Shown one piece after another: positions 33,001-57,272 of a stretch of 64,000 bases of DNA (the stretch's first letter is position 1; each line of letters starts with the position of its first letter). The position numbers were made by a program, and so were the translations under genes. Below the pieces are notes generated by a model. It was not told the DNA's origin. It was given only the letters and a program-made list of their open reading frames with translations, and did not search any database. The stretch is taken from assembly GCF_009931435.1 (NCBI RefSeq), contig NZ_CP043414.1; one strand, given 5' to 3'. This DNA is from Escherichia coli (GTDB lineage Bacteria; Pseudomonadota; Gammaproteobacteria; Enterobacterales; Enterobacteriaceae).

Positions 33001-33864
33001 TTATTCAATGTTCTGAATCTGCTCGCGCATCTGCTCAATCAACACTTTCAGCTCAATCGCGGAGTTAGTCACTTCGGCATTGATAGACTTCGAGGCCAGG
33101 GTGTTCGACTCGCGGTTGAACTCCTGCATCATAAAGTCCAGACGACGACCAACGGCTTCTTTTTTCTTCAGAATGTTGTAGGTCTCTTTAACATGCGCTT
33201 CGAGGCGGTCCAACTCTTCGGCAACGTCAATTCGTTGTGCCAGCAGAACCAACTCCTGCTCCAGACGGTTGTTTTCCAGTTGCACCTGGGCGTCTTCCAG
33301 CTTAGCCACCAGACGTTCACGCTGCCATTGCAGGATTTCCGGCATGTGGGCGCGGACTTTGACCACTTCGGCGGTCACGCCTTCCAGACGCTGCTCGATC
33401 AATGCTTTCAGCGCCTGACCTTCGGTTTCGCGCGCGACGATAAAGTCATCCAGCGTACCATCCAGCGCCACGAGAATTTCAGCGGCAATCGCGTCGAGAT
33501 CCTGTTCCTGGGCCGCCATCACGCCTGGCCAGCGGAGAATATCAACCGGGTTGATTTCCCCTTCGTCACTCTGCATTTTTACCCAGTTCGCGGCAGTTAC
33601 CAGCTGTTTAGCCAGTTTTTCGTTGAGGATCAGCTCACCTTGTGCGCTGACATCTGGCTCATAGCGCAGGGTACATTCCACTTTACCACGCGTCAGGCGA
33701 GAACGAATACGCTCGCGAACGACAGGTTCAAGGCTACGGAACTGCTCCGGCAGACGAAAGTAAGTTTCCAGATAACGCTGGTTTACCGAGCGCATTTCCC
33801 AGGTTGCGCTCCCCCATTCACCCTTGATTTCACGCCGGGCGTAGGCGGTCATACTGCGGATCAT
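33001..33864 (-). CDS. yicC: UPF0701 protein YicC
   Basis: 287-aa MIRSMTAYARREIKGEWGSATWEMRSVNQRYLE... Confidence 0.9.
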   Translation of the reverse strand: MIRSMTAYARREIKGEWGSATWEMRSVNQRYLETYFRLPEQFRSLEPVVRERIRSRLTRGKVECTLRYEPDVSAQGELILNEKLAKQLVTAANWVKMQSDEGEINPVDILRWPGVMAAQEQDLDAIAAEILVALDGTLDDFIVARETEGQALKALIEQRLEGVTAEVVKVRAHMPEILQWQRERLVAKLEDAQVQLENNRLEQELVLLAQRIDVAEELDRLEAHVKETYNILKKKEAVGRRLDFMMQEFNRESNTLASKSINAEVTNSAIELKVLIEQMREQIQNIE

Positions 33865-33990
33865 AGACGTTCCTGTTTATAAAAGGAGAGGTGGAAGGAT
33901 TATAGCCATCGATGCCTTGTCAGGATAGGAATAACCGCCGGAAGTCCGTATAATGCGCAGCCACATTTGTTTCAAGCCGGAGATTTCAAT

Positions 33991-34707
33991 ATGCGTCCAG
34001 CAGGCCGTAGCAATAATCAGGTGCGTCCCGTTACCCTGACTCGTAACTATACAAAACATGCAGAAGGCTCGGTGCTGGTCGAATTTGGCGATACCAAAGT
34101 ATTATGTACCGCCTCTATTGAAGAAGGCGTGCCCCGCTTCCTGAAAGGTCAGGGCCAGGGCTGGATCACCGCAGAATACGGTATGCTGCCGCGTTCTACT
34201 CATACCCGTAATGCCCGTGAAGCGGCGAAAGGTAAGCAGGGGGGACGCACAATGGAAATCCAGCGTCTGATCGCCCGTGCTCTTCGCGCGGCAGTAGATT
34301 TGAAAGCGCTGGGTGAGTTCACCATTACGCTGGACTGCGACGTGCTTCAGGCTGATGGTGGCACGCGTACCGCTTCGATTACCGGTGCTTGTGTTGCACT
34401 GGCCGATGCCCTGAATAAACTGGTTGAAAATGGCAAGCTGAAAACCAACCCGATGAAAGGGATGGTAGCCGCGGTTTCTGTCGGGATTGTGAACGGCGAA
34501 GCGGTTTGCGATCTGGAATACGTTGAAGACTCTGCCGCTGAAACGGACATGAACGTGGTGATGACCGAAGACGGGCGCATCATTGAAGTTCAGGGAACGG
34601 CAGAAGGCGAGCCGTTTACCCATGAAGAGCTACTCACCTTGTTGGCGCTGGCCCGAGGGGGAATCGAATCCATTGTAGCGACGCAGAAGGCGGCGCTGGC
34701 AAACTGA
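33991..34707 (+). CDS. rph: Ribonuclease PH, intact (no K-12 rph-1 frameshift)
   Basis: Start at [14 protein letters not shown] gives the full 238 aa ending ...[11 protein letters not shown]. Confidence 0.95.
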
Positions 34708-34712
34708 TTTTT

Positions 34713-34740
34713 AAGGCGACTGATGAGTCGCCTTTTTTTT
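34713..34740 (+). terminator. pyrE attenuator (UTP-sensitive transcription terminator between rph and pyrE)
   Basis: Hairpin GGCGACT-GATG-AGTCGCC followed by T8, placed just after the rph stop and before the pyrE start. Confidence 0.75.
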
Positions 34741-34772
34741 GTCTGTAGAAAAGTAAGATGAGGAGCGAAGGC

Positions 34773-35414
34773 ATGAAACCATATCAGCGCCAGTTTATTG
34801 AATTTGCGCTTGGCAAGCAGGTGTTAAAGTTTGGCGAGTTTACGCTGAAGTCCGGGCGCAAAAGCCCCTATTTCTTCAACGCCGGGCTGTTTAATACCGG
34901 GCGCGATCTGGCACTGTTAGGCCGTTTTTACGCTGAAGCATTGGTGGATTCCGGCATTGAGTTCGATCTGCTGTTTGGCCCTGCTTACAAAGGGATCCCA
35001 ATTGCCACTACTACCGCAGTGGCGCTGGCGGAGCATCATGACCTGGACCTGCCGTACTGCTTTAACCGCAAAGAAGCAAAAGACCACGGTGAAGGCGGCA
35101 ATCTGGTCGGTAGCGCGTTACAAGGACGCGTAATGCTGGTGGATGATGTGATCACCGCCGGAACGGCGATTCGCGAGTCGATGGAAATTATTCAGGCCAA
35201 TGGCGCGACGCTTGCTGGCGTATTGATTTCGCTCGATCGTCAGGAGCGTGGTCGCGGCGAGATTTCGGCAATTCAGGAAGTTGAACGTGATTACAACTGC
35301 AAAGTGATCTCTATCATCACCCTGAAAGACCTGATTGCTTACCTCGAAGAGAAGCCAGAAATGGCGGAACATCTGGCGGCGGTTAAGGCCTACCGCGAAG
35401 AGTTTGGCGTTTAA
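34773..35414 (+). CDS. pyrE: Orotate phosphoribosyltransferase
   Basis: Start at [13 protein letters not shown] gives 213 aa. Confidence 0.95.
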
Positions 35415-35484
35415 AAATATGCGCTGCGCAGGTTTTTACTGTGCGCAGCGTGATGCGGTTTAAGATATCGTGTTAATCTGCTTT

Positions 35485-35678
35485 CGCCAGCAGTGGCAAT
35501 AGCGTTTCCGGCCTTTTATGCCGGGAGGGTCGGCGAGTCGCCGACTTAACGCCAGTAGGTTGTCCAGATACCCAAAGTCGCTCCATTGTACTTAAGTACG
35601 CTTCGCGTACGTCGCGCTGACGCGCTCAGTACAGTTACGCGCCTTCGGGATGGTTTGATGGTATTGCTGCTGTTGGCG
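35485..35678 (+). ncRNA. msr-msd: Retron msr-msd region (template for msDNA), Ec107-like; boundaries approximate
   Basis: Inverted repeats a1 (35485-35501) and a2 (35662-35678) can pair over 17 positions including G-U wobbles; internal perfect stem-loops at 35529-35545 and 35597-35611; lies immediately upstream of the RT gene. Confidence 0.55.
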
Positions 35679-35710
35679 CCTCTTTTGGCCGCCGTGATGT
35701 GGAGAGTGGA

Positions 35711-36670
35711 ATGGATGCTACCCGGATAACCCTTCTGGCGCTCGATTTGTTCGGCTCGCCGGGCTGGAGCGCCGATAAAGAAATACAGCGGCTGTATGCG
35801 CTCAGTAATCATGCCGGACGCCATTACCGACGCATTATTCTTTCTAAACGCCACGGTGGTCAGCGGCTGGTGTTAGCCCCTGATTACTTGCTCAAAACCG
35901 TACAGCGCAACATTCTTAAGAACGTCCTTTCACAATTTCCACTTTCCTCTTTTGCTACCGCCTACCGACAGGGTCGCCCAATCGTCAGCAACGCGCAGCC
36001 TCACTGCCAACAGCCGCAGATCCTTAAACTCGATATCGAAAACTTTTTCGATAGCATTAGCTGGCTACAGGTCTGGCGTGTGTTTAGCCAGACCCAGTTG
36101 CCACGCAATGTGGTAACCATGCTGACCTGGCTTTGTTGCTATAACGACGCGTTACCGCAGGGGGCGCCAACTTCGCCTGCCATTTCCAATCTTGTGATGC
36201 GCCGTTTTGATGAGTGCATAGGGGAATGGTGTCAGGCTCGGGGAATTACCTACACCCGCTACTGCGATGACATGACCTTTTCTGGTCACTTCAATGCCCG
36301 CCAGGTTAAAAATAAAGTATGCGGATTGTTAGCGGAGCTGGGCCTGAGCCTCAATCAACGCAAAAGCTGCCTGATAGCTGCCTGTAAGCGCCAGCAGGTA
36401 ACCGGGATTGTTGTTAATCACAAGCCACAGCTTGCCCGTGAAGCGCGCCGGGCGCTGCGTCAGGAAGTACATTTGTGCCAAAAATATGGCGTTATTTCGC
36501 ATCTTAGTCATCGTGGTGAACTTGATCCTTCTGGCGATCTCCACGCACAGGCAACGGCGTATCTTTATGCTTTGCAGGGAAGAATAAACTGGTTATTGCA
36601 AATCAATCCTGAGGATGAGGCCTTTAAACAGGCGAGGGTGAGTGTAAAGCGAATGCTGGTGGCATGGTAA
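35711..36670 (+). CDS. ret: Retron-type reverse transcriptase (319 aa), consistent with retron-Ec107 RT
   Basis: RT motifs including YCDDMTF (YxDD box); GGAG Shine-Dalgarno 6 nt upstream of the ATG at 35711; inserted between convergent pyrE and slmA. Confidence 0.9.
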   Translation: MDATRITLLALDLFGSPGWSADKEIQRLYALSNHAGRHYRRIILSKRHGGQRLVLAPDYLLKTVQRNILKNVLSQFPLSSFATAYRQGRPIVSNAQPHCQQPQILKLDIENFFDSISWLQVWRVFSQTQLPRNVVTMLTWLCCYNDALPQGAPTSPAISNLVMRRFDECIGEWCQARGITYTRYCDDMTFSGHFNARQVKNKVCGLLAELGLSLNQRKSCLIAACKRQQVTGIVVNHKPQLAREARRALRQEVHLCQKYGVISHLSHRGELDPSGDLHAQATAYLYALQGRINWLLQINPEDEAFKQARVSVKRMLVAW

Positions 36671-43264: not shown

Positions 43265-43615
43265 AGTAAATAGCTGACTTATGGATGTGCTGGGGATTCT
43301 ATGTATTTAGCTGTGGCTTTACCATTACTTTTCCCGTTTTTGACTTAAATAGCAATTTACCCGCCAATTCTTGCTGAACATCTATACTTTTTTTGTATTT
43401 TTATGCGATTCATTGATTTCCGCAGTACGTGCAGTAAGGAATCGCGGAGCAACAGTGAAAGAATATTGTTGCTAATGATTTTATTTGATTGATTTCTTTA
43501 TTGAAAAACAACGATGTGCTTAAAAATCATTCGGATCGGATTGCCGCGAAAGAAGTGATACACTAGCGCGTCAATATCAGTACGGTATCAGTATTCAGGT
43601 AGCTGTTGAGCCTGG

Positions 43616-43627
43616 GGCGGTAGCGTG
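43616..43627 (+). promoter_or_regulatory. ops element (within a JUMPstart sequence) in the waaQ operon leader; RfaH recruitment site
   Basis: GGCGGTAGCGTG matches the ops consensus; located about 50 bp upstream of waaQ. Confidence 0.8.
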
Positions 43628-45856: not shown

Positions 45857-46646
45857 ACTTAAAGAGCCGTTTGCCACGTTATGGCGCGGTAAAGATCCTT
45901 TTGAGGAAGTTAAAACCTTGCAGGGTGAGGTTTTTCGTGAACTGGAAACTCGCCGCACTCTGCGCTTTGAAATGGCGGGCAAAAGCTATTTTCTCAAATG
46001 GCATCGCGGCACGACCCTGAAAGAGATAATCAAAAATTTACTCTCATTGCGGATGCCAGTATTAGGCGCAGACCGCGAATGGAATGCGATTCATCGACTG
46101 CGGGATGTCGGCGTTGATACTATGTATGGGGTGGCATTCGGCGAAAAAGGCATTAATCCACTGACCAGAACCTCGTTTATTATAACCGAAGATCTGACAC
46201 CAACCATCAGTCTGGAAGATTACTGTGCTGACTGGGCGACTAACCCTCCAGATGTTCGCGTAAAGCGTATGCTTATTAAGCGTGTCGCGATGATGGTGCG
46301 CGATATGCATGCTGCGGGCATTAACCACCGTGACTGTTATATCTGTCATTTCCTGCTGCACTTGCCTTTTTCCGGTAAGGAAGAGGAGTTAAAAATTTCA
46401 GTAATTGACCTGCACCGGGCGCAGCTTCGCACGCGCGTTCCACGTCGTTGGCGCGATAAAGATCTTATTGGGCTTTATTTTTCTTCGATGAATATTGGCC
46501 TGACTCAGCGGGATATCTGGCGGTTCATGAAGGTGTATTTTGCTGCCCCGCTTAAAGACATTCTCAAGCAGGAACAAGGGCTGCTGTCGCAAGCAGAAGC
46601 AAAAGCCACAAAAATCAGGGAAAGAACGATTCGAAAATCGTTGTAA
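45849..46646 (+). CDS. waaP: LPS core heptose I kinase
   Basis: Start at [14 protein letters not shown] gives 265 aa. Confidence 0.95.
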
Positions 46647-46661
46647 TTTCCGGAGAGAAAT

Positions 46662-47678
46662 ATGAGTGCCCACTATTTTAATCCACAAGAGATGATCAAT
46701 AAGACAATCATCTTCGATGAAAGGCCAGAGGCGTCAGTGGCATCATCATTCCATGTTGCTTATGGCATTGATAAAAACTTTCTTTTTGGTTGTGGTGTTT
46801 CAATCACGTCAGTTTTGTTACATAACAACGACGTGAGTTTTGTCTTCCACGTTTTTATTGATGATATCCCTGACGCCGATATCCAGCGTTTATCCCAATT
46901 GGCGAAAAGCTATCATACCTGTATCCAGATCCATCTGGTAAATTGTGAACGGCTTAAGGTATTACCGACGACCAAAAATTGGTCTATTGCCATGTATTTC
47001 CGTTTTGTAATTGCAGATTACTTTATTGATCAACAAGATAAGATCCTGTACCTGGATGCTGATATCGCCTGTCAGGGAACCTTAAAACCGCTGATAACAA
47101 TGGATCTTGCCAATAACGTTGCTGCTGTTGTTACTGAACGCGATGCTAACTGGTGGTCGTTACGGGCTCAAAGTCTGCAGTGTAATGAACTTGAAAAGGG
47201 TTACTTTAATTCAGGTGTCCTGTTAATTAATACACTAGCGTGGGCGCAGGAGTCCGTTTCTGCTAAAGCGATGTCGATGCTTGCTGATAAAGCCGTCGTT
47301 TCCCGTTTAACCTATATGGATCAAGATATACTAAATCTTATCCTGTTAGGGAAAGTTAAATTCATTGATGCTAAATACAATACGCAATTTAGTTTAAATT
47401 ATGAATTAAAAAAATCATTTATTTGTCCAATTAATGATGAAACCGTATTAATTCATTATGTCGGCCCGACAAAACCCTGGCATTACTGGGCCGGTTATCC
47501 AAGCGCGCAGCCATTTATCAAAGCCAAAGAAGCATCGCCATGGAAAAATGAACCGTTAATGCGGCCAATTAACTCAAATTATGCTCGTTATTGCGCTAAG
47601 CATAATTTTAAACAAAATAAACCAATTAACGGGATAATGAATTATATTTATTATTTTTATTTAAAGATAATAAAATGA
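46662..47678 (+). CDS. waaO: GT8-family LPS outer-core glycosyltransferase; by position the R1-type WaaO
   Basis: 338-aa GT8 protein (DxD, YFNSGVLLIN motifs) immediately after waaP; AT-rich. Confidence 0.7.
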   Translation: MSAHYFNPQEMINKTIIFDERPEASVASSFHVAYGIDKNFLFGCGVSITSVLLHNNDVSFVFHVFIDDIPDADIQRLSQLAKSYHTCIQIHLVNCERLKVLPTTKNWSIAMYFRFVIADYFIDQQDKILYLDADIACQGTLKPLITMDLANNVAAVVTERDANWWSLRAQSLQCNELEKGYFNSGVLLINTLAWAQESVSAKAMSMLADKAVVSRLTYMDQDILNLILLGKVKFIDAKYNTQFSLNYELKKSFICPINDETVLIHYVGPTKPWHYWAGYPSAQPFIKAKEASPWKNEPLMRPINSNYARYCAKHNFKQNKPINGIMNYIYYFYLKIIK

Positions 47679-47694
47679 CATTGAGAAAAGTTAA

Positions 47695-48690
47695 ATGAAT
47701 GAATTTATAAAAGAACGGTTTTCGTATTTAGCAGATAATAAAAAAGAAAACGTCCCAGAGCTAAATGTTTCCTACGGTATCGATAAGAATTTTTTGTATG
47801 GTGCTGGCGTTTCAATTTCTTCCGTTTTGATTAATAATTCAGATATTAATTTTGTCTTTCATGTTTTCACTGATTATGTGGATGATGATTATTTAAAGTC
47901 ATTTAATGAAACAGCAAAACAATTTAATACCTCAATTATTGTATATTTAATTGACCCAAAATACTTTGCTGATCTACCGACGTCACAGTTTTGGTCGTAC
48001 GCGACATACTTCAGGGTATTGTCCTTTGAATATCTGAGTGAAAGTATTTCCACACTGCTGTATCTGGATGCCGATGTCGTTTGTAAAGGAAGTCTGAAAC
48101 CTCTCACAAAAATTATATTTAAAGATGAGTTTGCTGCGGTTATTCCTGACAATGATAGTACTCAGGCGGCATGTGCAAAACGTCTTAACATTCCCGAAAT
48201 GAATGGACGTTATTTCAATGCAGGCGTTATCTATGTCAATCTTAAAAAATGGCATGAAGCAAATTTGACACCGTATTTACTCAAACTTTTACGAGGGGAA
48301 ACTAAATATGGCTCTCTTAAATATTTAGATCAGGATGCGTTGAATATCGCATTTAATATGAATAATATCTACCTTGCGAAGGATTTTGATACTATTTATA
48401 CCCTGAAAAACGAACTTTATGATCGTAGTCATCGAAAGTATCAGCAAACCATTACCGATAAAACAGTGTTGATTCACTATACAGGGATAACTAAACCATG
48501 GCATAGCTGGGCTGGATATCCGTCTGCATCATACTTTAATATCGCGCGTGAACAATCTCCCTGGAAGAAATATCCTCTTAAAGAGGCGCGGACTGTTGCA
48601 GAAATGCAGAAACAATATAAGCATCTGTTTGCCCATGGTGAGTATATAAAAGGCATAACTTCATTAATTAAGTACAAGCTTAAGAAATAA
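47695..48690 (+). CDS. waaT: GT8-family LPS outer-core glycosyltransferase; by position the R1-type WaaT
   Basis: 331-aa GT8 paralog (LDADVVCKG, YFNAGVIYVN). Confidence 0.65.
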   Translation: MNEFIKERFSYLADNKKENVPELNVSYGIDKNFLYGAGVSISSVLINNSDINFVFHVFTDYVDDDYLKSFNETAKQFNTSIIVYLIDPKYFADLPTSQFWSYATYFRVLSFEYLSESISTLLYLDADVVCKGSLKPLTKIIFKDEFAAVIPDNDSTQAACAKRLNIPEMNGRYFNAGVIYVNLKKWHEANLTPYLLKLLRGETKYGSLKYLDQDALNIAFNMNNIYLAKDFDTIYTLKNELYDRSHRKYQQTITDKTVLIHYTGITKPWHSWAGYPSASYFNIAREQSPWKKYPLKEARTVAEMQKQYKHLFAHGEYIKGITSLIKYKLKK

Positions 48691-48699
48691 ATTACTCTT

Positions 48700-49392
48700 A
48701 TGATTACAAGTATACGTTATCGCGGCTTCTCATTTTATTACAAAGATAATGATAATAAATATAAAGAAATCTTTGATGAAATACTGGCCTATAATTTTAA
48801 AACAGTAAAAGTATTACGTAATATTGATGATACCAAAGTATCGTTGATTGATACGAAATATGGTCGCTATGTTTTTAAAGTCTTTGCTCCGAAAACGAAA
48901 AGGAATGAACGTTTTTTAAAATCTTTTGTAAAAGGTGACTACTATCAGAATTTGATCGTTGAAACCGATCGTGTCAGAAGTGCAGGTCTTACTTTTCCTA
49001 ATGATTTTTATTTTCTGGCTGAGCGTAAAATTTTCAACTATGCCAGTGTTTTTATCATGCTTATCGAGTATGTCGAGGGCGTAGAGCTCAATGATATGCC
49101 GATTATTCCAGAAAATGTTAAAGCAGAAATTAAGGTTTCAATGGAAAAATTGCATGCCTTAAATATGCTATCGGGCGACCCACACCGGGGTAACTTTATC
49201 GTTAGTAAAGATGGTGTCAGGATAATTGACCTATCCGGTAAAAGCTGTACGGCAGAGCGTAAAGCTCGTGATCGTCTGGCCATGGAACGTCACCTGGGTA
49301 TTGCCAACGAAATAAAAGATTATGGCTACTATTCAGTAATCTACAGAACCAAACTACGCAAATTTATTAAAAAATTAAAAGGCAAAGCGTAA
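48700..49392 (+). CDS. waaY: LPS core heptose II kinase
   Basis: 230-aa kinase-like protein between GT8 genes, as WaaY in waa clusters. Confidence 0.8.
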   Translation: MITSIRYRGFSFYYKDNDNKYKEIFDEILAYNFKTVKVLRNIDDTKVSLIDTKYGRYVFKVFAPKTKRNERFLKSFVKGDYYQNLIVETDRVRSAGLTFPNDFYFLAERKIFNYASVFIMLIEYVEGVELNDMPIIPENVKAEIKVSMEKLHALNMLSGDPHRGNFIVSKDGVRIIDLSGKSCTAERKARDRLAMERHLGIANEIKDYGYYSVIYRTKLRKFIKKLKGKA

Positions 49393-49417
49393 ACCACACA
49401 GTCAAAACGGAACCAAC

Positions 49418-50446
49418 ATGGATTTATTAGCTGAGAGTATTACTGAAGTCGCTGTCTCTGGGGAAATTGCTAACACCGATCGTGTGTTAAATATCGCTTA
49501 CGGTATTGACCGTAATTTTTTATTTGGTGCGGCAGTATCTATGCAATCAGTTGTTATGCATAACCCGGACCTTGCGGTTAAGTTTCATCTCTTTACCGAC
49601 TACATTGATGAAGATTATCTACAACGTGTTAACGCTTTTACCAGCAAAAATGCTAACGTTGAAGTAAGAATTTATAAAGTCTCCAGTGCCTTTATTGATA
49701 TCTTCCCCAGCCTGAAACAGTGGTCTTATGCAACATTCTTCCGTTTAGTTGCGTTCCAGTATCTGAGTGAAACTATTGAAAATCTGTTATATATCGATGC
49801 TGATGTCATCTGTAAAGGCTCATTAGCTGGATTGCTTGATATTAATTTTGACGGCGATAAGTTTGCAGCTGTTATTAAAGATGTGCCTTTTATGCAGGAA
49901 AAACCAGCGAAGCGTCTGGCTATAGAGGGACTTCCAGGGAATTATTTCAACGCTGGTGTAGTATATCTGCAGCTTGAAGCATGGTCGAAAAATGATTTTA
50001 TGAACAAAGCCATTGCTATGCTGGCAAGTGACCCGCAGCACACGAAATATAAATGCCTTGATCAGGATATTTTAAATATTCTGTTCTTTGGTCATTGTAT
50101 TTTTATTAGCGGCGATTATGATTGCTTTTATGGCATTGACTATGAGTTAAAAAATAAAAGCAATGAAGATTATAAAAAGACCATTACCGATGATACTAAG
50201 CTGATTCATTATGTTGGCGTAACGAAGCCCTGGAACGACTGGACAAATTATCCCTGCCAGAAGTATTTTAATGAGGCTTATCAGGCTTCTTGCTGGAATG
50301 ATGTGGCGTTTATTCCAGCCACGAATGAAAAGCAGTATCAAGTGAAATACCAACATGCAAAGAAAAATGGTGATACGTTTAACGCTTTCATTTACTTCAT
50401 TAAATTCAAATTAAATAAGTATAAAAGAAAACTATTTGGGCAATAA
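49418..50446 (+). CDS. waaW: GT8-family LPS outer-core glycosyltransferase; by position the R1-type WaaW
   Basis: 342-aa GT8 paralog (IDADVICKG, YFNAGVVYLQ). Confidence 0.65.
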   Translation: MDLLAESITEVAVSGEIANTDRVLNIAYGIDRNFLFGAAVSMQSVVMHNPDLAVKFHLFTDYIDEDYLQRVNAFTSKNANVEVRIYKVSSAFIDIFPSLKQWSYATFFRLVAFQYLSETIENLLYIDADVICKGSLAGLLDINFDGDKFAAVIKDVPFMQEKPAKRLAIEGLPGNYFNAGVVYLQLEAWSKNDFMNKAIAMLASDPQHTKYKCLDQDILNILFFGHCIFISGDYDCFYGIDYELKNKSNEDYKKTITDDTKLIHYVGVTKPWNDWTNYPCQKYFNEAYQASCWNDVAFIPATNEKQYQVKYQHAKKNGDTFNAFIYFIKFKLNKYKRKLFGQ

Positions 50447-50524
50447 AAATCATGGATGTCTGAGTTACAATAATAATTAAGGATGAGTACTATCATATTT
50501 TATTAGTTCAGGCAAGAGAACACG

Positions 50525-51508
50525 ATGAGCAATGATTACCCTTTAGTATCCATAATAATACCGACGTATAATTCATCTGATTACATTACTGAAACTCTAA
50601 CGAAATTAGAAAAACAAACTTACCCAAATTTTGAAATTGTTATTGTTAATGATGGTTCTAAAGATAACACATCAAACGTTTTGAGAGAGTATGGGTTAAC
50701 CCACTCGCAATTAATTATTATCAATAAAGAAAATGGCGGTGTTTCGTCTGCCAGGAATACAGGTATCCGCAAGGCGCAAGGACAGTTTATATGTTTTATG
50801 GATGATGATGATGAGATAGATCCTAACTATCTGCTGAAGATGTATTCCAGACAACATGAGACGGGAGGGGATGCGATTTATTGTGGGCTTTATGGCCATC
50901 ATATAAAAAATGGTGTTACTTACTCACCTATAAATACAGAGTTTAATGAAGGGTCTTTACTTTTCGACTTTTTTTATAAAAAGGTCAGATTCCATATAGG
51001 GTGCTTGTTTATAAGAAAACAACTCCTGGAAGATAATAATCTTTTTTTTGATGAAGATTTACGACTAGGAGAAGATCTGGATTTTATCTATCGACTGCTA
51101 ATTACATGCGATATGTATGCGGTTCCATATTATATGTATAAGCATAACTATAGAGAAAATTCCTTAATGAACTCATGTAGAACCATCACTCATTATCGAC
51201 ATGAGTCATTTGCGCACGAAAGAATCTACTCTTCTGTGATGCAGTTATACAAAGGTAACCGGAAAGAAGAAATTCATACATTATTGAGTAAAAATAGAAC
51301 TTATCATAAAACTCGTTATTTATGGAATGTTCTACTTAATGGCGATTTTGAATTATTAAATCAATTAGTTGAAAGCAATGAAAAAGAATTGAAAGATTGT
51401 AATCTTCTTGGCAAGAGAGATAAGAGGCGAGCAAAAATATTAGCATCAAAAAACTATATTCTCTGGAGGATGGTAAGACTGGTAAATAGAAAAAAGAATA
51501 AACGTTAG
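50525..51508 (+). CDS. waaV: GT2-family glycosyltransferase; by position the R1-type WaaV
   Basis: 327-aa protein with the GT2 N-terminus VSIIIPTYNSSDYI...VIVNDGSKDNT and DDDD motif. Confidence 0.65.
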   Translation: MSNDYPLVSIIIPTYNSSDYITETLTKLEKQTYPNFEIVIVNDGSKDNTSNVLREYGLTHSQLIIINKENGGVSSARNTGIRKAQGQFICFMDDDDEIDPNYLLKMYSRQHETGGDAIYCGLYGHHIKNGVTYSPINTEFNEGSLLFDFFYKKVRFHIGCLFIRKQLLEDNNLFFDEDLRLGEDLDFIYRLLITCDMYAVPYYMYKHNYRENSLMNSCRTITHYRHESFAHERIYSSVMQLYKGNRKEEIHTLLSKNRTYHKTRYLWNVLLNGDFELLNQLVESNEKELKDCNLLGKRDKRRAKILASKNYILWRMVRLVNRKKNKR

Positions 51509-51553
51509 GTCTTCCATTAAATAACCCATCCTCGTAGCATAGGTTGAAATTAT

Positions 51554-52807
51554 ATGTCGTTTTGTTGGAATGAAATTAACTCTGGTGTCAAGTCTTTAAC
51601 TCTCATATTATGTATGTTGTCTTTAATGACTTTGTCTTTGTGGGATGATGTTGCAACAAAGTTTCTTCATGCAGCTGGAATTATATCTGCATTATATTTT
51701 CTAGCGACACCAAAAAAAACAATAACTAATAATCCTACGTTGTTAATTTTCATCTCATTATGTCTTTTGGGTATCGTTAATATCATCTGGTATTCACATT
51801 ATAAAGTTTCAGGCTCGGTTTATACCAATGCATATCGTGGCCCAATGGAAACTGGAAAAATTGCCTTGTGTAGTGCTTTTATTTTCTTAGTTCTTTTTGC
51901 TAAAGATGAGATGAGAACCAAAATAAAATTTGGGAAACTAATTCTGTTCGCATCCCTGGCAACGCAGTTACTTTTTTTTGCGCATGCCATGTGGCAACAT
52001 TTCTATTTAAACGTCGACCGTGTTGCATTATCAGCTTCCCACGCTACAACAGCAGGCTACATCATCCTTTTCCCTTCTTTACTGGCATCAATTCTCATTT
52101 TAAAATCCGACTTTAGACATAAAACAACATTATATACAATTAACTTCATGCTTAGCTTATGTGCTGTTATAGTAACTGAAACGCGTGCAGCCATATTAGT
52201 GTTTCCATTCTTTGCGTTACTATTAATCGTAATGGATAGTTATATTAATAAGCGAATTAATTATAAGTTATATTGTTTTATTGCGATTGCATTATTAGCA
52301 GGTGTATTTTCTTTTAAAGATACATTACTTACGAGAATGAATGACTTAAATAGGGATTTAGTTAATTATTCGCATGATAACACCAGAACTTCAGTCGGTG
52401 CCCGTCTGGCAATGTATGAAGTTGGTTTAAAAACATATTCTCCAATAGGACAATCACTGGAAAAACGCGCGGAAAAAATACATGAACTAGAAGAGAAAGA
52501 GCCTAGATTAAGTGGCGCTTTACCCTTTGTAGATTCTCATTTGCATAACGATCTCATAGATACGTTATCAACGCGTGGTATTCCTGGAGTAGTATTAACA
52601 ATTTTAGCCTTTTCAGCAATATTCATATATGCCTTAAGAACTGCTAAAGAACCTTATATTTTAATCTTGCTTTTTTCACTACTGGTAGTAGGCCTAAGTG
52701 ATGTAATACTCTTTTCTAAACCGGTTCCGACTGCTGTGTTTGTCACCATAATATTGCTTTGTGCTTATTTTAAAGCACAATCGGACCAATGTTTATTAGA
52801 TAAGTAA
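51554..52807 (+). CDS. waaL: O-antigen ligase
   Basis: 417-aa highly hydrophobic polytopic protein at the end of the waaQ operon. Confidence 0.8.
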   Translation: MSFCWNEINSGVKSLTLILCMLSLMTLSLWDDVATKFLHAAGIISALYFLATPKKTITNNPTLLIFISLCLLGIVNIIWYSHYKVSGSVYTNAYRGPMETGKIALCSAFIFLVLFAKDEMRTKIKFGKLILFASLATQLLFFAHAMWQHFYLNVDRVALSASHATTAGYIILFPSLLASILILKSDFRHKTTLYTINFMLSLCAVIVTETRAAILVFPFFALLLIVMDSYINKRINYKLYCFIAIALLAGVFSFKDTLLTRMNDLNRDLVNYSHDNTRTSVGARLAMYEVGLKTYSPIGQSLEKRAEKIHELEEKEPRLSGALPFVDSHLHNDLIDTLSTRGIPGVVLTILAFSAIFIYALRTAKEPYILILLFSLLVVGLSDVILFSKPVPTAVFVTIILLCAYFKAQSDQCLLDK

Positions 52808-52817
52808 TGAATATGTG

Positions 52818-52849
52818 AAATAAAATCAGCAAGGAAGCTGATTTTATTT
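52818..52849. terminator. Bidirectional terminator between convergent waaL and waaC
   Basis: Perfect 13-bp inverted repeat AAATAAAATCAGC/GCTGATTTTATTT with a 6-nt loop. Confidence 0.55.
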
Positions 52850-52876
52850 CAAAATTATCTATTAAAGAGTTGTAAT

Positions 52877-53857
52877 TTAAATCATGGCAGCTTTTTCAGC
52901 GTTTTCTTCAATGAATTGCTTAACAGCATTTGCTGTCAATTGAGACAACTCATTCCCCGGTGCCCTACATACCATCTGATTCTTCCCATACCCGCCAATT
53001 AATCCCGGATCGGTTGGCCCATAAACCGTGATATTCGGTCGATCCAGTGCTGCAGTTAAATGGCTTAATCCTGTATCGACTGACACAACAAATTTAGCCC
53101 CCGCCAGCACACAAGCAACGCCTTCCAGACTCATCTTCGGCAATACTTCAACATAAGCAAATCCTTCCGCCAGTCTTTTTGCCCGCTCTTCTTCATGCGG
53201 CGCGCCCCACGGAAGTTTAATGCGAATCCCTGAATCTGCCAGTAAACCAATCAACTCTCGCCAGTGTGCTTCCGGCCAGTGTTTATCATCACGGGTTGTT
53301 GCATGAAGAAATACGGCATATTCGCCAGCATCTGTTGGCAGGTTCGTCAGGAAATGCTGCGCAATAGCATAATCGCCCTGAGTCTGCGGTTTGCTATAGC
53401 CCAGACTTTTGGCAAACAGTTCGCGGGTGCGTTCTACGGCGTGCTGCTGTTTTGCAATATGATGTTTACGATTGTAAAACAGGCTGGCTAAAGGTTCGCG
53501 TGCGGTTTGCCAGTCCATTCCATGCTTTACGCCATGCGCCAGACGCGTAACTAGTGCCGCGCTTTTTACCAGCCCCTGAGCGTCGATAACTGCGTCATAG
53601 TTCTCTGCTTGTAGCGCTTCACGAAACGCTTTGCGTTCAGCTTTTATGGGGGCCGAGAACCAGGCTTTACGCCAGCGACGTATTGCCACAGGAATAACTC
53701 GCTCAACGGCGGCGTGCCAGGAAGGAATTTGTGCGAACCCTTCTTCCACCACCCAGTCAAACTTAATCCCCGGGATTGCCTGCTGGGCATCAGTGAGTGC
53801 GGGCAACGTATGGAGAACATCGCCCATCGACGATGTTTTAACGATCAAAACCCGCAT
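52877..53857 (-). CDS. waaC: LPS heptosyltransferase I
   Basis: MRVLIVKTSSMGDVLHTLPALTDAQ... matches WaaC. Confidence 0.95.
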   Translation of the reverse strand: MRVLIVKTSSMGDVLHTLPALTDAQQAIPGIKFDWVVEEGFAQIPSWHAAVERVIPVAIRRWRKAWFSAPIKAERKAFREALQAENYDAVIDAQGLVKSAALVTRLAHGVKHGMDWQTAREPLASLFYNRKHHIAKQQHAVERTRELFAKSLGYSKPQTQGDYAIAQHFLTNLPTDAGEYAVFLHATTRDDKHWPEAHWRELIGLLADSGIRIKLPWGAPHEEERAKRLAEGFAYVEVLPKMSLEGVACVLAGAKFVVSVDTGLSHLTAALDRPNITVYGPTDPGLIGGYGKNQMVCRAPGNELSQLTANAVKQFIEENAEKAAMI

Positions 53858-53860
53858 CCG

Positions 53861-54907
53861 TCAGGCTTCCTCTTGTAACAATAGCGCGTTGAGTTCTTCC
53901 AGTACGCGCTGGGGAGTAATGTCGATCAAGCTCTGGTGATAACCCTCCGCAGCATCACCTTTACGCACTTTGTGATAGCCGGTAATCAGGCGGATCACGC
54001 GCGCTTTATGGGATAGTGGCGGTGTGAAGTCCGGGCTACTCGGACCATACAGGGCAACCAAAGGACGATTGAGCGCCGCCGCAACGTGCATCAGGCCAGA
54101 ATCGTTAGTGACAATGGCTTTACAGGCTGCAATCAGGATAACCGCTTGATCAAGCTGTGTTTCCCCCGCCAGGTTCCGGCACCATGCCTGCTGCTCGGTA
54201 TTCAAAGCGGCAAGAATCTCATTGCCCGCTTCATGATCTTTCGCCGAGCCAAACAGAACCACCTGATAACCTTCATCAATCAGCTGCTTTGCCAGCTCAG
54301 CATAGTGGTAGTGTGGCCAGCGTTTTGCCGGACCAAACTCCGCCCCCGGGCAAAAGCCAATCATCGGACGTTCTGATGAGAGCGAAAATTGATTACAGGT
54401 ATATGATTTTTCACCTTCGCTCACCTGCAACTGCGGCCATAACAATGGCTGCGGCAGATCTTGTGCGGTACGCATAATGCCTTTGTCATAGGCCAGCGCG
54501 ACATAGCGTTCCACCATTAGCGGCCAGGCTTCTTTATCGAGCACGCGTACATCGTTAAGTAAACCGTAGCGCATCTCGCCGCGCCAGCCGGTGCGATGAG
54601 GAATACCCGCGAAGAAAGGCACTAATGCGGACTTGAAGGAGTTGGGTAAGACGTAGGCGCGGTCGTAGCGCTTTTCACGCAGACTATGACCCAGTTTGCG
54701 GCGTTCGCCGATTTCCAGCGCTCCGTGACCGAGAGGCATAGGGATAGCTTCGTTAACTTCCGGCATCCGCGATAACAATGGACGGCACCATGCCGGTGCC
54801 ATCACGTCGATTATCGCCTGGGGATAGCGCGCCTGGAGCGTGCGATAGAGACTTTGCGACATCATCATGTCGCCAACCCAAGACGGGCCGATCACCAGTA
54901 TTTTCAT
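53861..54907 (-). CDS. waaF: LPS heptosyltransferase II
   Basis: 348-aa MKILVIGPSWVGDMMMSQSLYRTL... matches WaaF. Confidence 0.95.
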   Translation of the reverse strand: MKILVIGPSWVGDMMMSQSLYRTLQARYPQAIIDVMAPAWCRPLLSRMPEVNEAIPMPLGHGALEIGERRKLGHSLREKRYDRAYVLPNSFKSALVPFFAGIPHRTGWRGEMRYGLLNDVRVLDKEAWPLMVERYVALAYDKGIMRTAQDLPQPLLWPQLQVSEGEKSYTCNQFSLSSERPMIGFCPGAEFGPAKRWPHYHYAELAKQLIDEGYQVVLFGSAKDHEAGNEILAALNTEQQAWCRNLAGETQLDQAVILIAACKAIVTNDSGLMHVAAALNRPLVALYGPSSPDFTPPLSHKARVIRLITGYHKVRKGDAAEGYHQSLIDITPQRVLEELNALLLQEEA

Positions 54908-54916
54908 GCAGAGCTC

Positions 54917-55849
54917 TTATGCGTCGCGATTCAGCCAGGCCATGTATTCCGTTACACCTTCAGCAACGGTTTTGAACGGTTTGTCGTAACCCGCCGCGCG
55001 CAGATTCGTCAGATCTGCCTGAGTGAACGCCTGATAGCGGCCTTTCAGTTTATCCGGGAACGGAATGTATTCGATCTGGCCTTTCTTGTGATAAGCAAGC
55101 GTAGCATCTGCTACTGCCTGGAAGGATTCTGCACGACCGGTGCCGAGGTTGAAGATGCCGGAAACGCCGTTTTCCAGGAACCACAGATTCACATCAGCCA
55201 CGTCGCCCACATAGACGAAGTCACGTTTGAAGTTCTCGCTACCTTCGAACAGCTTCGGTGATTCACCGTTGTTAAGCTGAGTGTTGAGATGGAAAGCGAC
55301 GCTCGCCATGCTGCCTTTATGGCCTTCACGCGGTCCATAAACGTTGAAATAGCGGAAGCCAACAATCTGCGAGTTCGCTTCTGGCAGGATTTGGCGAACA
55401 TATTCATCAAACAGGAATTTTGAGTAACCGTAGACGTTCAACGGTTTTTCGTACTCGCGGGATTCAATAAAGTCGGAGGTGCGACCGCCGTAAGTGGCCG
55501 CGGAAGAAGCGTACAGGAACGGGATTTCGCGTTCCAGACAGTAGTGCAGCAGCTCTTTGGAGTATTGATAGTTGTTATCCATCATATACTTGCCATCCCA
55601 CTCGGTGGTGGAAGAGCACGCGCCTTCGTGGAAAATCGCTTCGACATCGCCGAACTCTTCGCCAGCCATAATCTGGATCAGGAAGTCTTCCTTATCCATA
55701 TAGTCCGCGATATCCAGATCCACCAGGTTCACAAACTTGGTGCCGTCTTTCAGGTTGTCCACCACCAGAATATCGGTGATGCCTTTGTCATTCAGGGCTT
55801 TAACGATGTTGCTGCCGATAAAGCCCGCGCCGCCGGTAACGATGATCAT
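54917..55849 (-). CDS. hldD: ADP-L-glycero-D-manno-heptose 6-epimerase
   Basis: 310-aa [23 protein letters not shown]... (Rossmann GxxGxxG) matches HldD (RfaD). Confidence 0.95.
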
Positions 55850-56062
55850 AACTGTAACCTTCGAATTATGGAGTCAGAGACAATCTCAGACACGAATGCT
55901 TCTATCATATCACTACACGGCGTTGGCTTCAGCCATTCGCCAAAAGTGAGATTGATGGACGTTATTTATCCTGAATTTTGCAGAAGTGTTAACGCGTCAT
56001 CTCGTCGCAACCTATAAGTTTGGGTAATATGTGCTGGAATTTGCCCTGTCTGGAGAATCGCA

Positions 56063-57259
56063 ATGCGTGGAGAATTTTATCAGCAGTTAACCAACGATCT
56101 GGAAACCGCAAGGGCGGAAGGGTTGTTTAAAGAAGAGCGCATTATTACGTCTGCGCAACAAGCAGACATCACTGTGGCTGATGGAAGCCACGTCATTAAC
56201 TTTTGTGCCAATAACTATCTCGGACTGGCGAATCATCCGGATCTGATTGCGGCGGCAAAGGCGGGAATGGATTCTCACGGTTTCGGCATGGCTTCAGTAC
56301 GTTTTATCTGCGGCACTCAGGACAGCCATAAAGAGCTTGAACAAAAACTGGCGGCCTTCCTGGGGATGGAAGATGCGATTCTCTACTCTTCCTGCTTTGA
56401 TGCTAACGGTGGCCTGTTCGAAACGCTGTTGGGCGCGGAAGACGCCATTATCTCCGACGCACTGAACCACGCGTCTATTATTGATGGTGTGCGTCTGTGC
56501 AAAGCTAAACGCTATCGTTATGCCAACAACGATATGCAGGAGCTGGAAGCACGTCTGAAAGAAGCGCGTGAAGCCGGTGCGCGTCATGTGCTGATTGCCA
56601 CCGATGGTGTGTTCTCGATGGACGGCGTGATTGCCAACCTGAAAGGTGTTTGCGATCTGGCAGATAAATACGATGCCCTGGTGATGGTAGACGACTCCCA
56701 CGCCGTTGGTTTTGTCGGTGAAAATGGTCGTGGTTCCCATGAATACTGCGATGTGATGGGCCGGGTCGATATTATCACCGGCACGCTCGGTAAAGCGCTG
56801 GGCGGGGCGTCTGGTGGTTATACCGCGGCGCGCAAAGAAGTGGTTGAGTGGCTGCGCCAGCGTTCTCGTCCGTACCTGTTCTCCAACTCGTTGGCACCGG
56901 CCATTGTTGCCGCTTCCATCAAAGTGTTGGAGATGGTTGAAGCGGGTAGCGAGCTGCGTGACCGTCTGTGGGCGAACGCGCGTCAGTTCCGTGAGCAAAT
57001 GTCGGCGGCGGGCTTTACCCTGGCGGGTGCCGATCACGCCATTATTCCGGTCATGCTTGGCGATGCTGTAGTGGCGCAAAAATTTGCACGTGAACTGCAA
57101 AAAGAGGGCATTTACGTCACCGGTTTCTTCTATCCGGTCGTTCCGAAAGGTCAGGCGCGTATTCGTACCCAGATGTCTGCGGCGCATACCCCTGAGCAAA
57201 TTACGCGTGCGGTAGAAGCGTTCACGCGTATTGGTAAACAACTGGGCGTAATCGCCTGA
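56063..57259 (+). CDS. kbl: 2-amino-3-ketobutyrate CoA ligase
   Basis: 398-aa PLP enzyme matching Kbl. Confidence 0.95.
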
Positions 57260-57272
57260 GTGAGGATGTGAG

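What the first reader, a model, noticed from the sequence alone, without database searches (positions are those of the whole stretch)
33991..34772. rph is intact, so rph-pyrE attenuation should be normally coupled
The rph reading frame runs its full 238 codons to ...QKAALAN. The attenuator hairpin plus T8 (34713-34740) sits right after its stop codon and 33 bp before pyrE. K-12 MG1655 and W3110 carry the rph-1 frameshift, which truncates rph and lowers pyrE expression. This strain lacks that lesion.
Basis: partly seen in the sequence, partly recalled or inferred. Interest (0 to 1): 0.2.

Follow-up and report, generated by a model that had tools for sequence, protein, structure and literature searches.

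The report
Intact wild-type rph-pyrE attenuator locus
This Escherichia coli strain has the normal, full-length RNase PH gene followed by the well-known pyrE attenuator; it lacks the one-base deletion peculiar to laboratory K-12 strains, which makes it ordinary for the species.

Summary
The observation and its interpretation both hold. rph (33991-34707, +) is an uninterrupted 238-codon frame ending QKAALAN-TGA. Its protein is 100% identical to RNase PH of E. coli E2348/69 and is a full-length match to the RNase PH equivalog model. The run of five G at 34657-34661 is four G in K-12 MG1655 (rph-1, 228-aa product), and W3110 matches that four-G allele exactly. This is the only indel in the alignment. 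Five bases after the stop codon lies a 9-bp hairpin (34713-34734, -14.2 kcal/mol) with a T8 run (34733-34740). A 32-nt spacer with a GAGGAG ribosome-binding site follows, then pyrE (34773-35414). From 34662 to 34800, and across the upstream region 33880-33990, the sequence is identical to K-12, where UTP-sensitive, translation-coupled attenuation was established experimentally. A ribosome at the true stop would cover about half of the 5' arm of the hairpin; one at the rph-1 stop (34676-34678) would end 25 nt short of it. The exact rph-1 allele occurs in only 167 of 5,426 complete E. coli genomes, and the carriers listed are laboratory K-12 lines or named derivatives. An intact rph is therefore the species norm. 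This is known biology and of low interest. In passing: a retron-Eco5 (Ec107)-type element abuts the pyrE stop codon.

The parts
33880..33990 (+). Region upstream of rph (yicC-rph intergenic; promoter and leader of the rph-pyrE operon)
   Evidence: 100% identical to K-12 MG1655 and E2348/69. The simple sigma-70 scan finds no consensus-like site here, so promoter positions are not mapped by this work.
33991..34707 (+). rph, RNase PH, 238 codons plus TGA, intact
   Evidence: ORF and translation. TIGR01966 equivalog at 380.9 bits against a cutoff of 141.5, covering profile positions 1-235 of 236. 100% identical to E2348/69 WP_001247087.1. End-to-end match to the solved RNase PH structure 1r6l.
34657..34661 (+). 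G5 homopolymer; site of the K-12 rph-1 one-base deletion (G4 in MG1655 and W3110)
   Evidence: Alignment column 797 is a gap in K-12 only; run located.
34676..34678 (+). Out-of-frame TAG that becomes the stop codon in rph-1; not in frame here
   Evidence: Simulated deletion of one G gives ...ARGESNPL* at 228 aa, which equals the K-12 product.
34705..34707 (+). True rph stop codon (TGA), 5 nt upstream of the hairpin
34713..34734 (+). pyrE attenuator hairpin, 9-bp stem (5 G-C), loop GATG
   Evidence: Terminator scan; -14.2 kcal/mol; present in the MFE and centroid structures of the 86-nt fold.
34733..34740 (+). T8 run (U-tract of the intrinsic terminator; its first two T are the last two stem positions)
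34741..34772 (+). 32-nt spacer to pyrE with the Shine-Dalgarno sequence GAGGAG at 34760-34765
   Evidence: Read directly from the sequence; no promoter-like site in it.
34773..35414 (+). pyrE, orotate phosphoribosyltransferase, 213 aa, intact
   Evidence: TIGR00336 at 238.9 bits against a cutoff of 106.8. One substitution (G14, where K-12 and E2348/69 have S14).

Best explanation
[quoted passage not shown] Transcription begins upstream of rph and reaches an intrinsic terminator (9-bp hairpin plus U8) in the 65-nt rph-pyrE intercistronic region. Whether RNA polymerase stops there depends on how closely the ribosome translating the end of rph follows it. When UTP is scarce the polymerase lags, and the ribosome reaches the rph stop codon (34705-34707) as the hairpin region emerges. 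There it covers or unwinds the 5' arm of the hairpin (34713-34721), so the terminator does not form and pyrE is transcribed. When UTP is plentiful the polymerase runs ahead, the hairpin forms and transcription ends at the U-tract. Because rph here is read to its natural stop 5 nt before the hairpin, this coupling is geometrically possible. In K-12 rph-1 the ribosome leaves the message 34 nt before the hairpin. Shown here: the anatomy, the intact frame, identity to the characterised K-12 attenuator, and absence of the rph-1 deletion. Inferred: the occlusion geometry and that regulation operates in this strain.
For: The frame is intact and the protein full length, and it belongs to the RNase PH family. 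The hairpin plus T8 lies 5 nt after the stop and 32 nt before the pyrE ATG. K-12 shows a single one-base gap at the G-run and no other indel. Positions 34662-34800 and 33880-33990 are identical to K-12 and E2348/69. The attenuator 129-mer is at least 99% identical in 5,339 of 5,424 E. coli genomes. In constrained folding, with UGA in the A site and mRNA occluded to +15 (34717), the best remaining hairpin is -4.1 kcal/mol against -16.3 when free; with the ribosome at the rph-1 TAG the hairpin is unaffected at -16.3. The literature describes UTP-modulated attenuation at pyrE through coupling of translation to transcription (Bonekamp 1984, cited in PMC2784333; summary in PMC7818426). It also reports that rph-1 lowers pyrE expression and causes pyrimidine limitation (PMC9997739; PMC5933015).
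Against: Nothing in the sequence argues against it. The limits are these. No expression data exist for this strain. The 86-nt fold is not significantly more stable than shuffles (z = -1.24), so the support comes from the local hairpin and its position, not from global folding. The ribosome footprint of +12 to +16 is a textbook figure, not measured here. At +12 the residual hairpin is still -12.7 kcal/mol, so the argument depends on the footprint or helicase reach being at least about +14.
Confidence: 0.93

Rival explanations
1. The hairpin plus T8 is simply the constitutive terminator of a monocistronic rph gene, and pyrE is expressed from its own promoter, so the state of rph is irrelevant to pyrE.
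For: The structure looks like any intrinsic terminator. No experiment was done on this strain.
Against: Only 32 nt separate the T-run from the pyrE ATG, and they hold a ribosome-binding site but no promoter-like site. The sequence is identical to K-12, where the rph-1 frameshift and compensating rph-pyrE deletions that move the stop codon change pyrE-dependent growth (PMC2784333; PMC5933015). That would be hard to explain if pyrE were independent of rph translation.
Confidence: 0.03
2. rph is intact as a reading frame, but the locus is impaired in some other way, for example by missense changes or a promoter defect, so that coupling or RNase PH activity is not normal.
For: Three residues differ from the K-12 sequence (A138 for V, N142 for Q, T216 for I). 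PyrE carries G14 where S14 is usual.
Against: The RNase PH protein is 100% identical to that of the natural isolates E2348/69 and 2020CK-00188 (WP_001247087.1), so the three differences are a common natural allele. The upstream region and the whole attenuator are identical to K-12.
Confidence: 0.03
3. The intact frame is an assembly artefact: homopolymer miscalling turned a true G4 into G5.
For: The difference is one base in a homopolymer, the commonest type of sequencing error. Raw reads are not available.
Against: The haplotype around the run is not K-12-like. It differs from K-12 at many synonymous sites and matches E2348/69. The exact K-12 rph-1 71-mer is in 167 of 5,426 genomes, and the two carriers among the rows sampled evenly down the ranking were MG1655 and J53. 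All 38 other sampled genomes carry one extra base across this stretch.
Confidence: 0.01

Closest known systems
Wild-type rph-pyrE operon and pyrE attenuator of Escherichia coli (UTP-sensitive, translation-coupled transcription attenuation; Bonekamp, Poulsen, Andersen and Jensen, 1984-1992)
   Same: Same gene order, same strand, and same distance from stop codon to hairpin. The hairpin, U-tract, spacer and pyrE start are identical (34662-34800 is 100% identical to K-12 and E2348/69). RNase PH is identical to a natural E. coli allele.
   Different: Nothing structural. There are synonymous and three missense polymorphisms in rph relative to K-12, and one substitution in PyrE (S14G).
K-12 rph-1 allele (MG1655, W3110, EMG2; Jensen 1993)
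   Same: Same locus and same attenuator sequence.
   Different: K-12 has G4 instead of G5 at the position of 34657-34661. This gives a 228-aa product that ends at a TAG 34 nt upstream of the hairpin. The window does not carry this lesion.
pyrBI attenuator of E. coli
   Same: Same logic according to the literature summary in PMC7818426: UTP-dependent pausing, and a ribosome that suppresses an intrinsic terminator upstream of a pyrimidine biosynthetic gene.
   Different: pyrBI uses a short dedicated leader peptide. Here the coupling ribosome is the one finishing a full-size enzyme gene (rph). This comparison comes from established knowledge and was not tested here.

Membership tests
RNase PH (TIGR01966 equivalog) | Full-length match above the curated cutoff | tested here: met
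   380.9 bits against a cutoff of 141.5; protein residues 2-236 on profile positions 1-235 of 236. Residues 2-237 align to 3-238 of the solved RNase PH 1r6l.
RNase PH (TIGR01966 equivalog) | Phosphorolytic 3'-5' exoribonuclease activity | not testable with these tools
   Inferred from 100% identity to the E2348/69 RNase PH and from family membership only.
E. coli rph-pyrE attenuator | The upstream ORF (rph) is translated to a stop codon within a few nt of the terminator hairpin | tested here: met
   TGA at 34705-34707; hairpin starts at 34713; gap of 5 nt.
E. coli rph-pyrE attenuator | Intrinsic terminator (G+C-rich hairpin plus U-tract) between rph and pyrE on the same strand | tested here: met
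   9-bp stem with 5 G-C pairs, T8, -14.2 kcal/mol.
E. coli rph-pyrE attenuator | pyrE immediately downstream with no promoter of its own in the spacer | tested here: inconclusive
   The 32-nt spacer has no consensus-like site in the scan. A consensus scan cannot exclude a weak promoter.
E. coli rph-pyrE attenuator | Sequence identity to the experimentally characterised K-12 attenuator | tested here: met
   34662-34800 is identical to MG1655, and at least 99% identical in 5,339 of 5,424 E. coli genomes.
E. coli rph-pyrE attenuator | Read-through rises when UTP falls and depends on translation of rph | not testable with these tools
   Known for K-12-derived constructs from the literature; not measured for this strain.
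rph-1 allele | One G missing from the G5 run, premature TAG, 228-aa product | tested here: not met
   G5 is present at 34657-34661 and the product is 238 aa. The window is not rph-1.
Retron-Eco5 (Ec107), noted in passing | Inserted between pyrE and slmA in place of the intergenic palindrome; YCDD catalytic box; inverted repeats flanking msr-msd upstream of the RT | tested here: met
   Homology to K-12 ends at the pyrE stop codon. YCDD is in the ORF 35711-36670, as reported for RT-Eco5 (PMC6868368). Repeats at 35485-35501 and 35662-35678. The score is just under the St85-family RT cutoff (228.6 against 235). msDNA production is not testable.

The most novel reading that the evidence does not exclude
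The retron-Eco5 (Ec107)-type element begins directly after the pyrE stop codon, on the same strand. It replaces the palindrome that follows pyrE in K-12, and no terminator-like site lies on that strand between pyrE and the RT gene. Transcripts that escape the pyrE attenuator could therefore run on into msr-msd-RT. That would put part of the retron's expression under the same UTP-sensing, rph-translation-dependent switch. A bolder version follows from the observation that the Eco5 RT branch is sister to retron RTs associated with PRTase-like proteins (PMC7736814): the housekeeping OPRTase PyrE could be functionally tied to the retron. Nothing here tests either idea. The retron probably has its own promoter, and a 9-bp G+C-rich hairpin (35422-35450) right after pyrE may stop or stabilise the pyrE message.
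Probability: 0.08. Interest if true: 0.45.

Novelty: already known. Interest (0 to 1): 0.06.

Why it matters
It matters little beyond correct annotation. rph should be annotated as a functional 238-aa RNase PH rather than as the K-12-style truncated gene. The strain is not expected to show the partial pyrimidine starvation of MG1655 and W3110 or the rph-pyrE 'repair' mutations that laboratory evolution of MG1655 keeps selecting. It also serves as a reminder that K-12 is the exception here: the exact rph-1 allele is in only 167 of 5,426 complete E. coli genomes.

Tried and rejected
1. I tried to read the primary papers (Jensen 1993 PMC204738, Bonekamp 1984 PMC557777, Turnbough and Switzer 2008 PMC2415746, Herzer 1996 PMC178209). 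None is held, so the mechanism is cited through later open-access papers and my own knowledge.

2. The Rfam gathering scan of the whole window gave only tRNA-Sec and JUMPstart. No match at the attenuator reached any family's threshold, so its absence says nothing about the attenuator.

3. Global folding of 34690-34775 is not significantly stable (z = -1.24). I rejected it as a test, because the relevant object is the 22-nt hairpin.

4. The count of terminator-like sites in the 2.2-kb region is not above chance (3 against 2.5). I replaced it with a comparison of all T8 runs in the window.

5. A 129-nt K-12 query could not separate G4 from G5 within the '>=99%' band (348 records). I repeated the search with a 71-nt query, so that one difference drops a hit below 99% (167 records).

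6. I did not run the large cross-species scans (genome contigs, metagenome contigs). Identity to the experimentally characterised K-12 attenuator already settles the question, and the cost was not justified.

Full report
**Observation**

The region was read on both strands and ORFs were listed. On the + strand a frame runs from the ATG at 33991 to the TGA at 34705-34707. It has 238 sense codons and no internal stop, and its product ends ...[14 protein letters not shown]. The mechanical ORF list begins it at an upstream TTG (33967). The ATG at 33991 corresponds to the annotated start in E. coli E2348/69 and K-12.

Five bases (TTTTT) after the stop codon lies the inverted repeat AAGGCGACT/AGTCGCCTT (34713-34734, loop GATG), running into a T8 tract (34733-34740). 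The terminator scan found it independently (9 pairs, 5 G-C), and it folds at -14.2 kcal/mol. Thirty-two bases further on, after GAGGAG at 34760-34765, is the ATG of a 213-codon frame (34773-35414).

The scan's count of terminator-like sites in this 2.2-kb region is not above chance (3 against 2.5 expected). However, of the seven T8 runs on either strand of the 64-kb window, this is the only one preceded by a stable hairpin (-14.4 kcal/mol; all others are -5.3 or weaker).

**Identity of the genes**

- The 238-aa protein is a full-length match to the RNase PH equivalog model TIGR01966 (380.9 bits, cutoff 141.5, profile positions 1-235 of 236).
- It aligns end to end with solved RNase PH structures (1r6l, residues 2-237 on 3-238).
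- The downstream protein matches the pyrE model TIGR00336 (238.9 bits, cutoff 106.8).
- The divergent upstream gene (33001-33864, - strand) is yicC.
- The neighbourhood dinD-yicC-rph-pyrE-(retron RT)-slmA-dut-coaBC is that of E. coli.
- All but 2 of 5,426 complete E. coli genomes hold this 1.5-kb segment once, on the chromosome, at no more than 98.7% identity to the window.

**Comparison with the K-12 rph-1 allele**

I aligned window 33880-34800 with MG1655 (NC_000913.3, where rph is annotated 'truncated RNase PH') and with E2348/69. The only indel is one G missing in K-12 from the run GGGGG at 34657-34661.

At the protein level the window is 100% identical to E2348/69 RNase PH (WP_001247087.1). 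The K-12 product diverges after ...ALARG and ends ESNPL* at 228 aa. Deleting one G from the window in silico reproduces exactly that product, using the out-of-frame TAG at 34676-34678. W3110 (NC_007779.1) and MG1655 both match a 129-nt G4 query at 100% (H69 and H70).

**How unusual is an intact rph?**

It is not unusual. I used a 71-nt K-12 query centred on the G-run, so that any single difference falls below 99% identity.

- It has exact matches in 167 of 5,426 genomes.
- In rows sampled evenly down the ranking, the two exact matches are MG1655 and J53.
- All 38 non-exact rows span one base more than the part of the query they match, as expected for G5.
- The carriers listed are K-12 laboratory strains, named derivatives such as BW25113, HMS174, J53 and MFDpir, or unlabelled strains of the same genome size.

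The literature agrees that rph-1 is a lesion of the EMG2/MG1655/W3110 lineage and is absent from the K-12 strain WG1 (PMC9997739).

**Mechanism**

According to the literature, pyrE expression is controlled by UTP through transcription pausing and attenuation (PMC7818426). [quoted passage not shown] 1984, title cited in PMC2784333).

The rph-1 deletion gives low orotate phosphoribosyltransferase levels and pyrimidine limitation (Jensen 1993, cited). [quoted passage not shown] True reversion of rph-1 has also been engineered (PMC5933015).

The window is base-for-base identical to K-12 across the last 46 nt of rph, the attenuator, the spacer and the start of pyrE (34662-34800). It is also identical across the 111 nt upstream of rph (33880-33990). 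The 129-mer 34662-34790 is at least 99% identical in 5,339 of 5,424 genomes.

I tested the geometry with constrained folding:

| Ribosome position | mRNA occluded to | Best remaining hairpin |
|---|---|---|
| None (free RNA) | none | -16.3 kcal/mol |
| UGA in the A site, +12 from the P-site codon | 34714 | -12.7 kcal/mol |
| UGA in the A site, +14 | 34716 | -6.1 kcal/mol |
| UGA in the A site, +15 | 34717 | -4.1 kcal/mol (a 4-bp stem) |
| UGA in the A site, +16 | 34718 | -0.4 kcal/mol |
| rph-1 TAG in the A site | 34688 | -16.3 kcal/mol (hairpin untouched) |

The anatomy and its identity to the characterised system are shown here. The footprint is a textbook value, and the conclusion that regulation is normal in this strain is an inference. 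I put it at about 0.93.

**Rivals**

- *Constitutive terminator with an independent pyrE promoter.* This is unlikely. Only 32 nt lie between the U-tract and the ATG, and they contain no promoter-like site. The K-12 genetics also show that pyrE depends on where rph translation ends.
- *A hidden defect elsewhere.* This is unlikely. The three residues that differ from K-12 (A138, N142, T216) belong to an allele shared with the natural isolates E2348/69 and 2020CK-00188. The flanking regulatory DNA is identical to K-12.
- *A homopolymer assembly error.* This cannot be excluded without reads. It is improbable because the surrounding haplotype is not K-12-like, and G5 is the state in every sampled genome outside the exact-match K-12 group.

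**Verdict**

The feature is already known and is the normal state of the species, so interest is low.

**Things seen in passing**

1. *Retron next to pyrE.* Homology to K-12 stops at the pyrE stop codon, where about 1.3 kb replaces the K-12 pyrE/slmA palindrome.
   - It holds inverted repeats at 35485-35501 and 35662-35678.
   - It holds a 319-aa reverse transcriptase gene (35711-36670) with a YCDD box, the hallmark reported for retron-Eco5 (Ec107), which 'replaces a palindromic 34 bp' intergenic sequence (PMC6868368).
   - The RT is only 93% identical to that of E2348/69 and is a pseudogene in the closest genome.
   - No terminator-like site separates pyrE from it on the + strand.
   - This underlies the low-probability novel reading that attenuator read-through feeds the retron.
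2. *Island next to selC.* Beside tRNA-Sec (6977-7067) lies an integrase-bearing island. It carries a Tn3-family transposase fragment, a type A chloramphenicol acetyltransferase gene and IS1.
3. *PyrE substitution.* PyrE carries G14 where the other five E. coli sequences examined have S.
4. *Divergence of the window.* The window is only 98.7% identical to its best complete genome over 22 kb and about 97.1% to the next-best matches listed.
5. *Variation in other E. coli.* The attenuator shows small natural variants: T9 in N2409 and a lost C in the 3' arm in MLI106K2. In 23CRST050 an IS200/IS605 element sits immediately after the U-tract. Seventeen genomes in all lack a single match covering at least 80% of the 129-mer; only 23CRST050 was examined.

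Noticed in passing
window 35415-36670 (+): A retron-Eco5 (Ec107)-type element starts right after the pyrE stop codon and replaces the K-12 pyrE/slmA palindrome. It has a2/a1 inverted repeats at 35485-35501 and 35662-35678. Its RT gene (35711-36670) has a YCDD box, is 93% identical in protein to the E2348/69 RT, and is a pseudogene in the closest genome, 2020CK-00188. No terminator-like site lies on the + strand between pyrE and the RT, so read-through from rph-pyrE is conceivable.
   Followed up: partly
window 35422-35450 (+): A perfect 9-bp G+C-rich inverted repeat (CGCTGCGCA ... TGCGCAGCG, 11-nt loop) lies immediately after the pyrE stop, inside the retron-side sequence. It is not followed by a T-run, and its role is unknown (pyrE 3' end, stabiliser or part of the retron).
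   Followed up: no
window 1-7067: An island next to selC (tRNA-Sec at 6977-7067, - strand). It holds a tyrosine integrase (5489-6673), a TPR protein (4034-5077), IS1 (3278-3781), a type A chloramphenicol acetyltransferase gene (2146-2805, -) and a Tn3-family transposase fragment (92-1501). This is a chromosomal resistance gene inside a mosaic of mobile elements.
   Followed up: partly
window 34812-34814: PyrE codon 14 is GGC (Gly), whereas K-12, E2348/69 and three other E. coli examined have AGC (Ser). It is the only PyrE difference from K-12 and E2348/69.
   Followed up: no
window 24000-46000 and 46000-64000: The window is only 98.7% identical to its best complete E. coli genome (2020CK-00188) and about 97.1% to the next-best matches listed, such as E2348/69 and IAI39. 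This suggests a sparsely sampled lineage.
   Followed up: no
L006, L007, L008 (other E. coli genomes), corresponding to window 34730-34745: Natural variants of the attenuator: T9 instead of T8 (N2409), loss of one C from the 3' arm (MLI106K2), and an IS200/IS605 insertion directly after the U-tract, separating the attenuator from pyrE (23CRST050). Seventeen genomes lack a single match covering at least 80% of the attenuator 129-mer; only 23CRST050 was examined.
   Followed up: partly
window 43589-43627 (+): A JUMPstart RNA element (Rfam RF01707, 55.2 bits) lies upstream of the waa (rfaQ) LPS core operon, as expected for E. coli.
   Followed up: no
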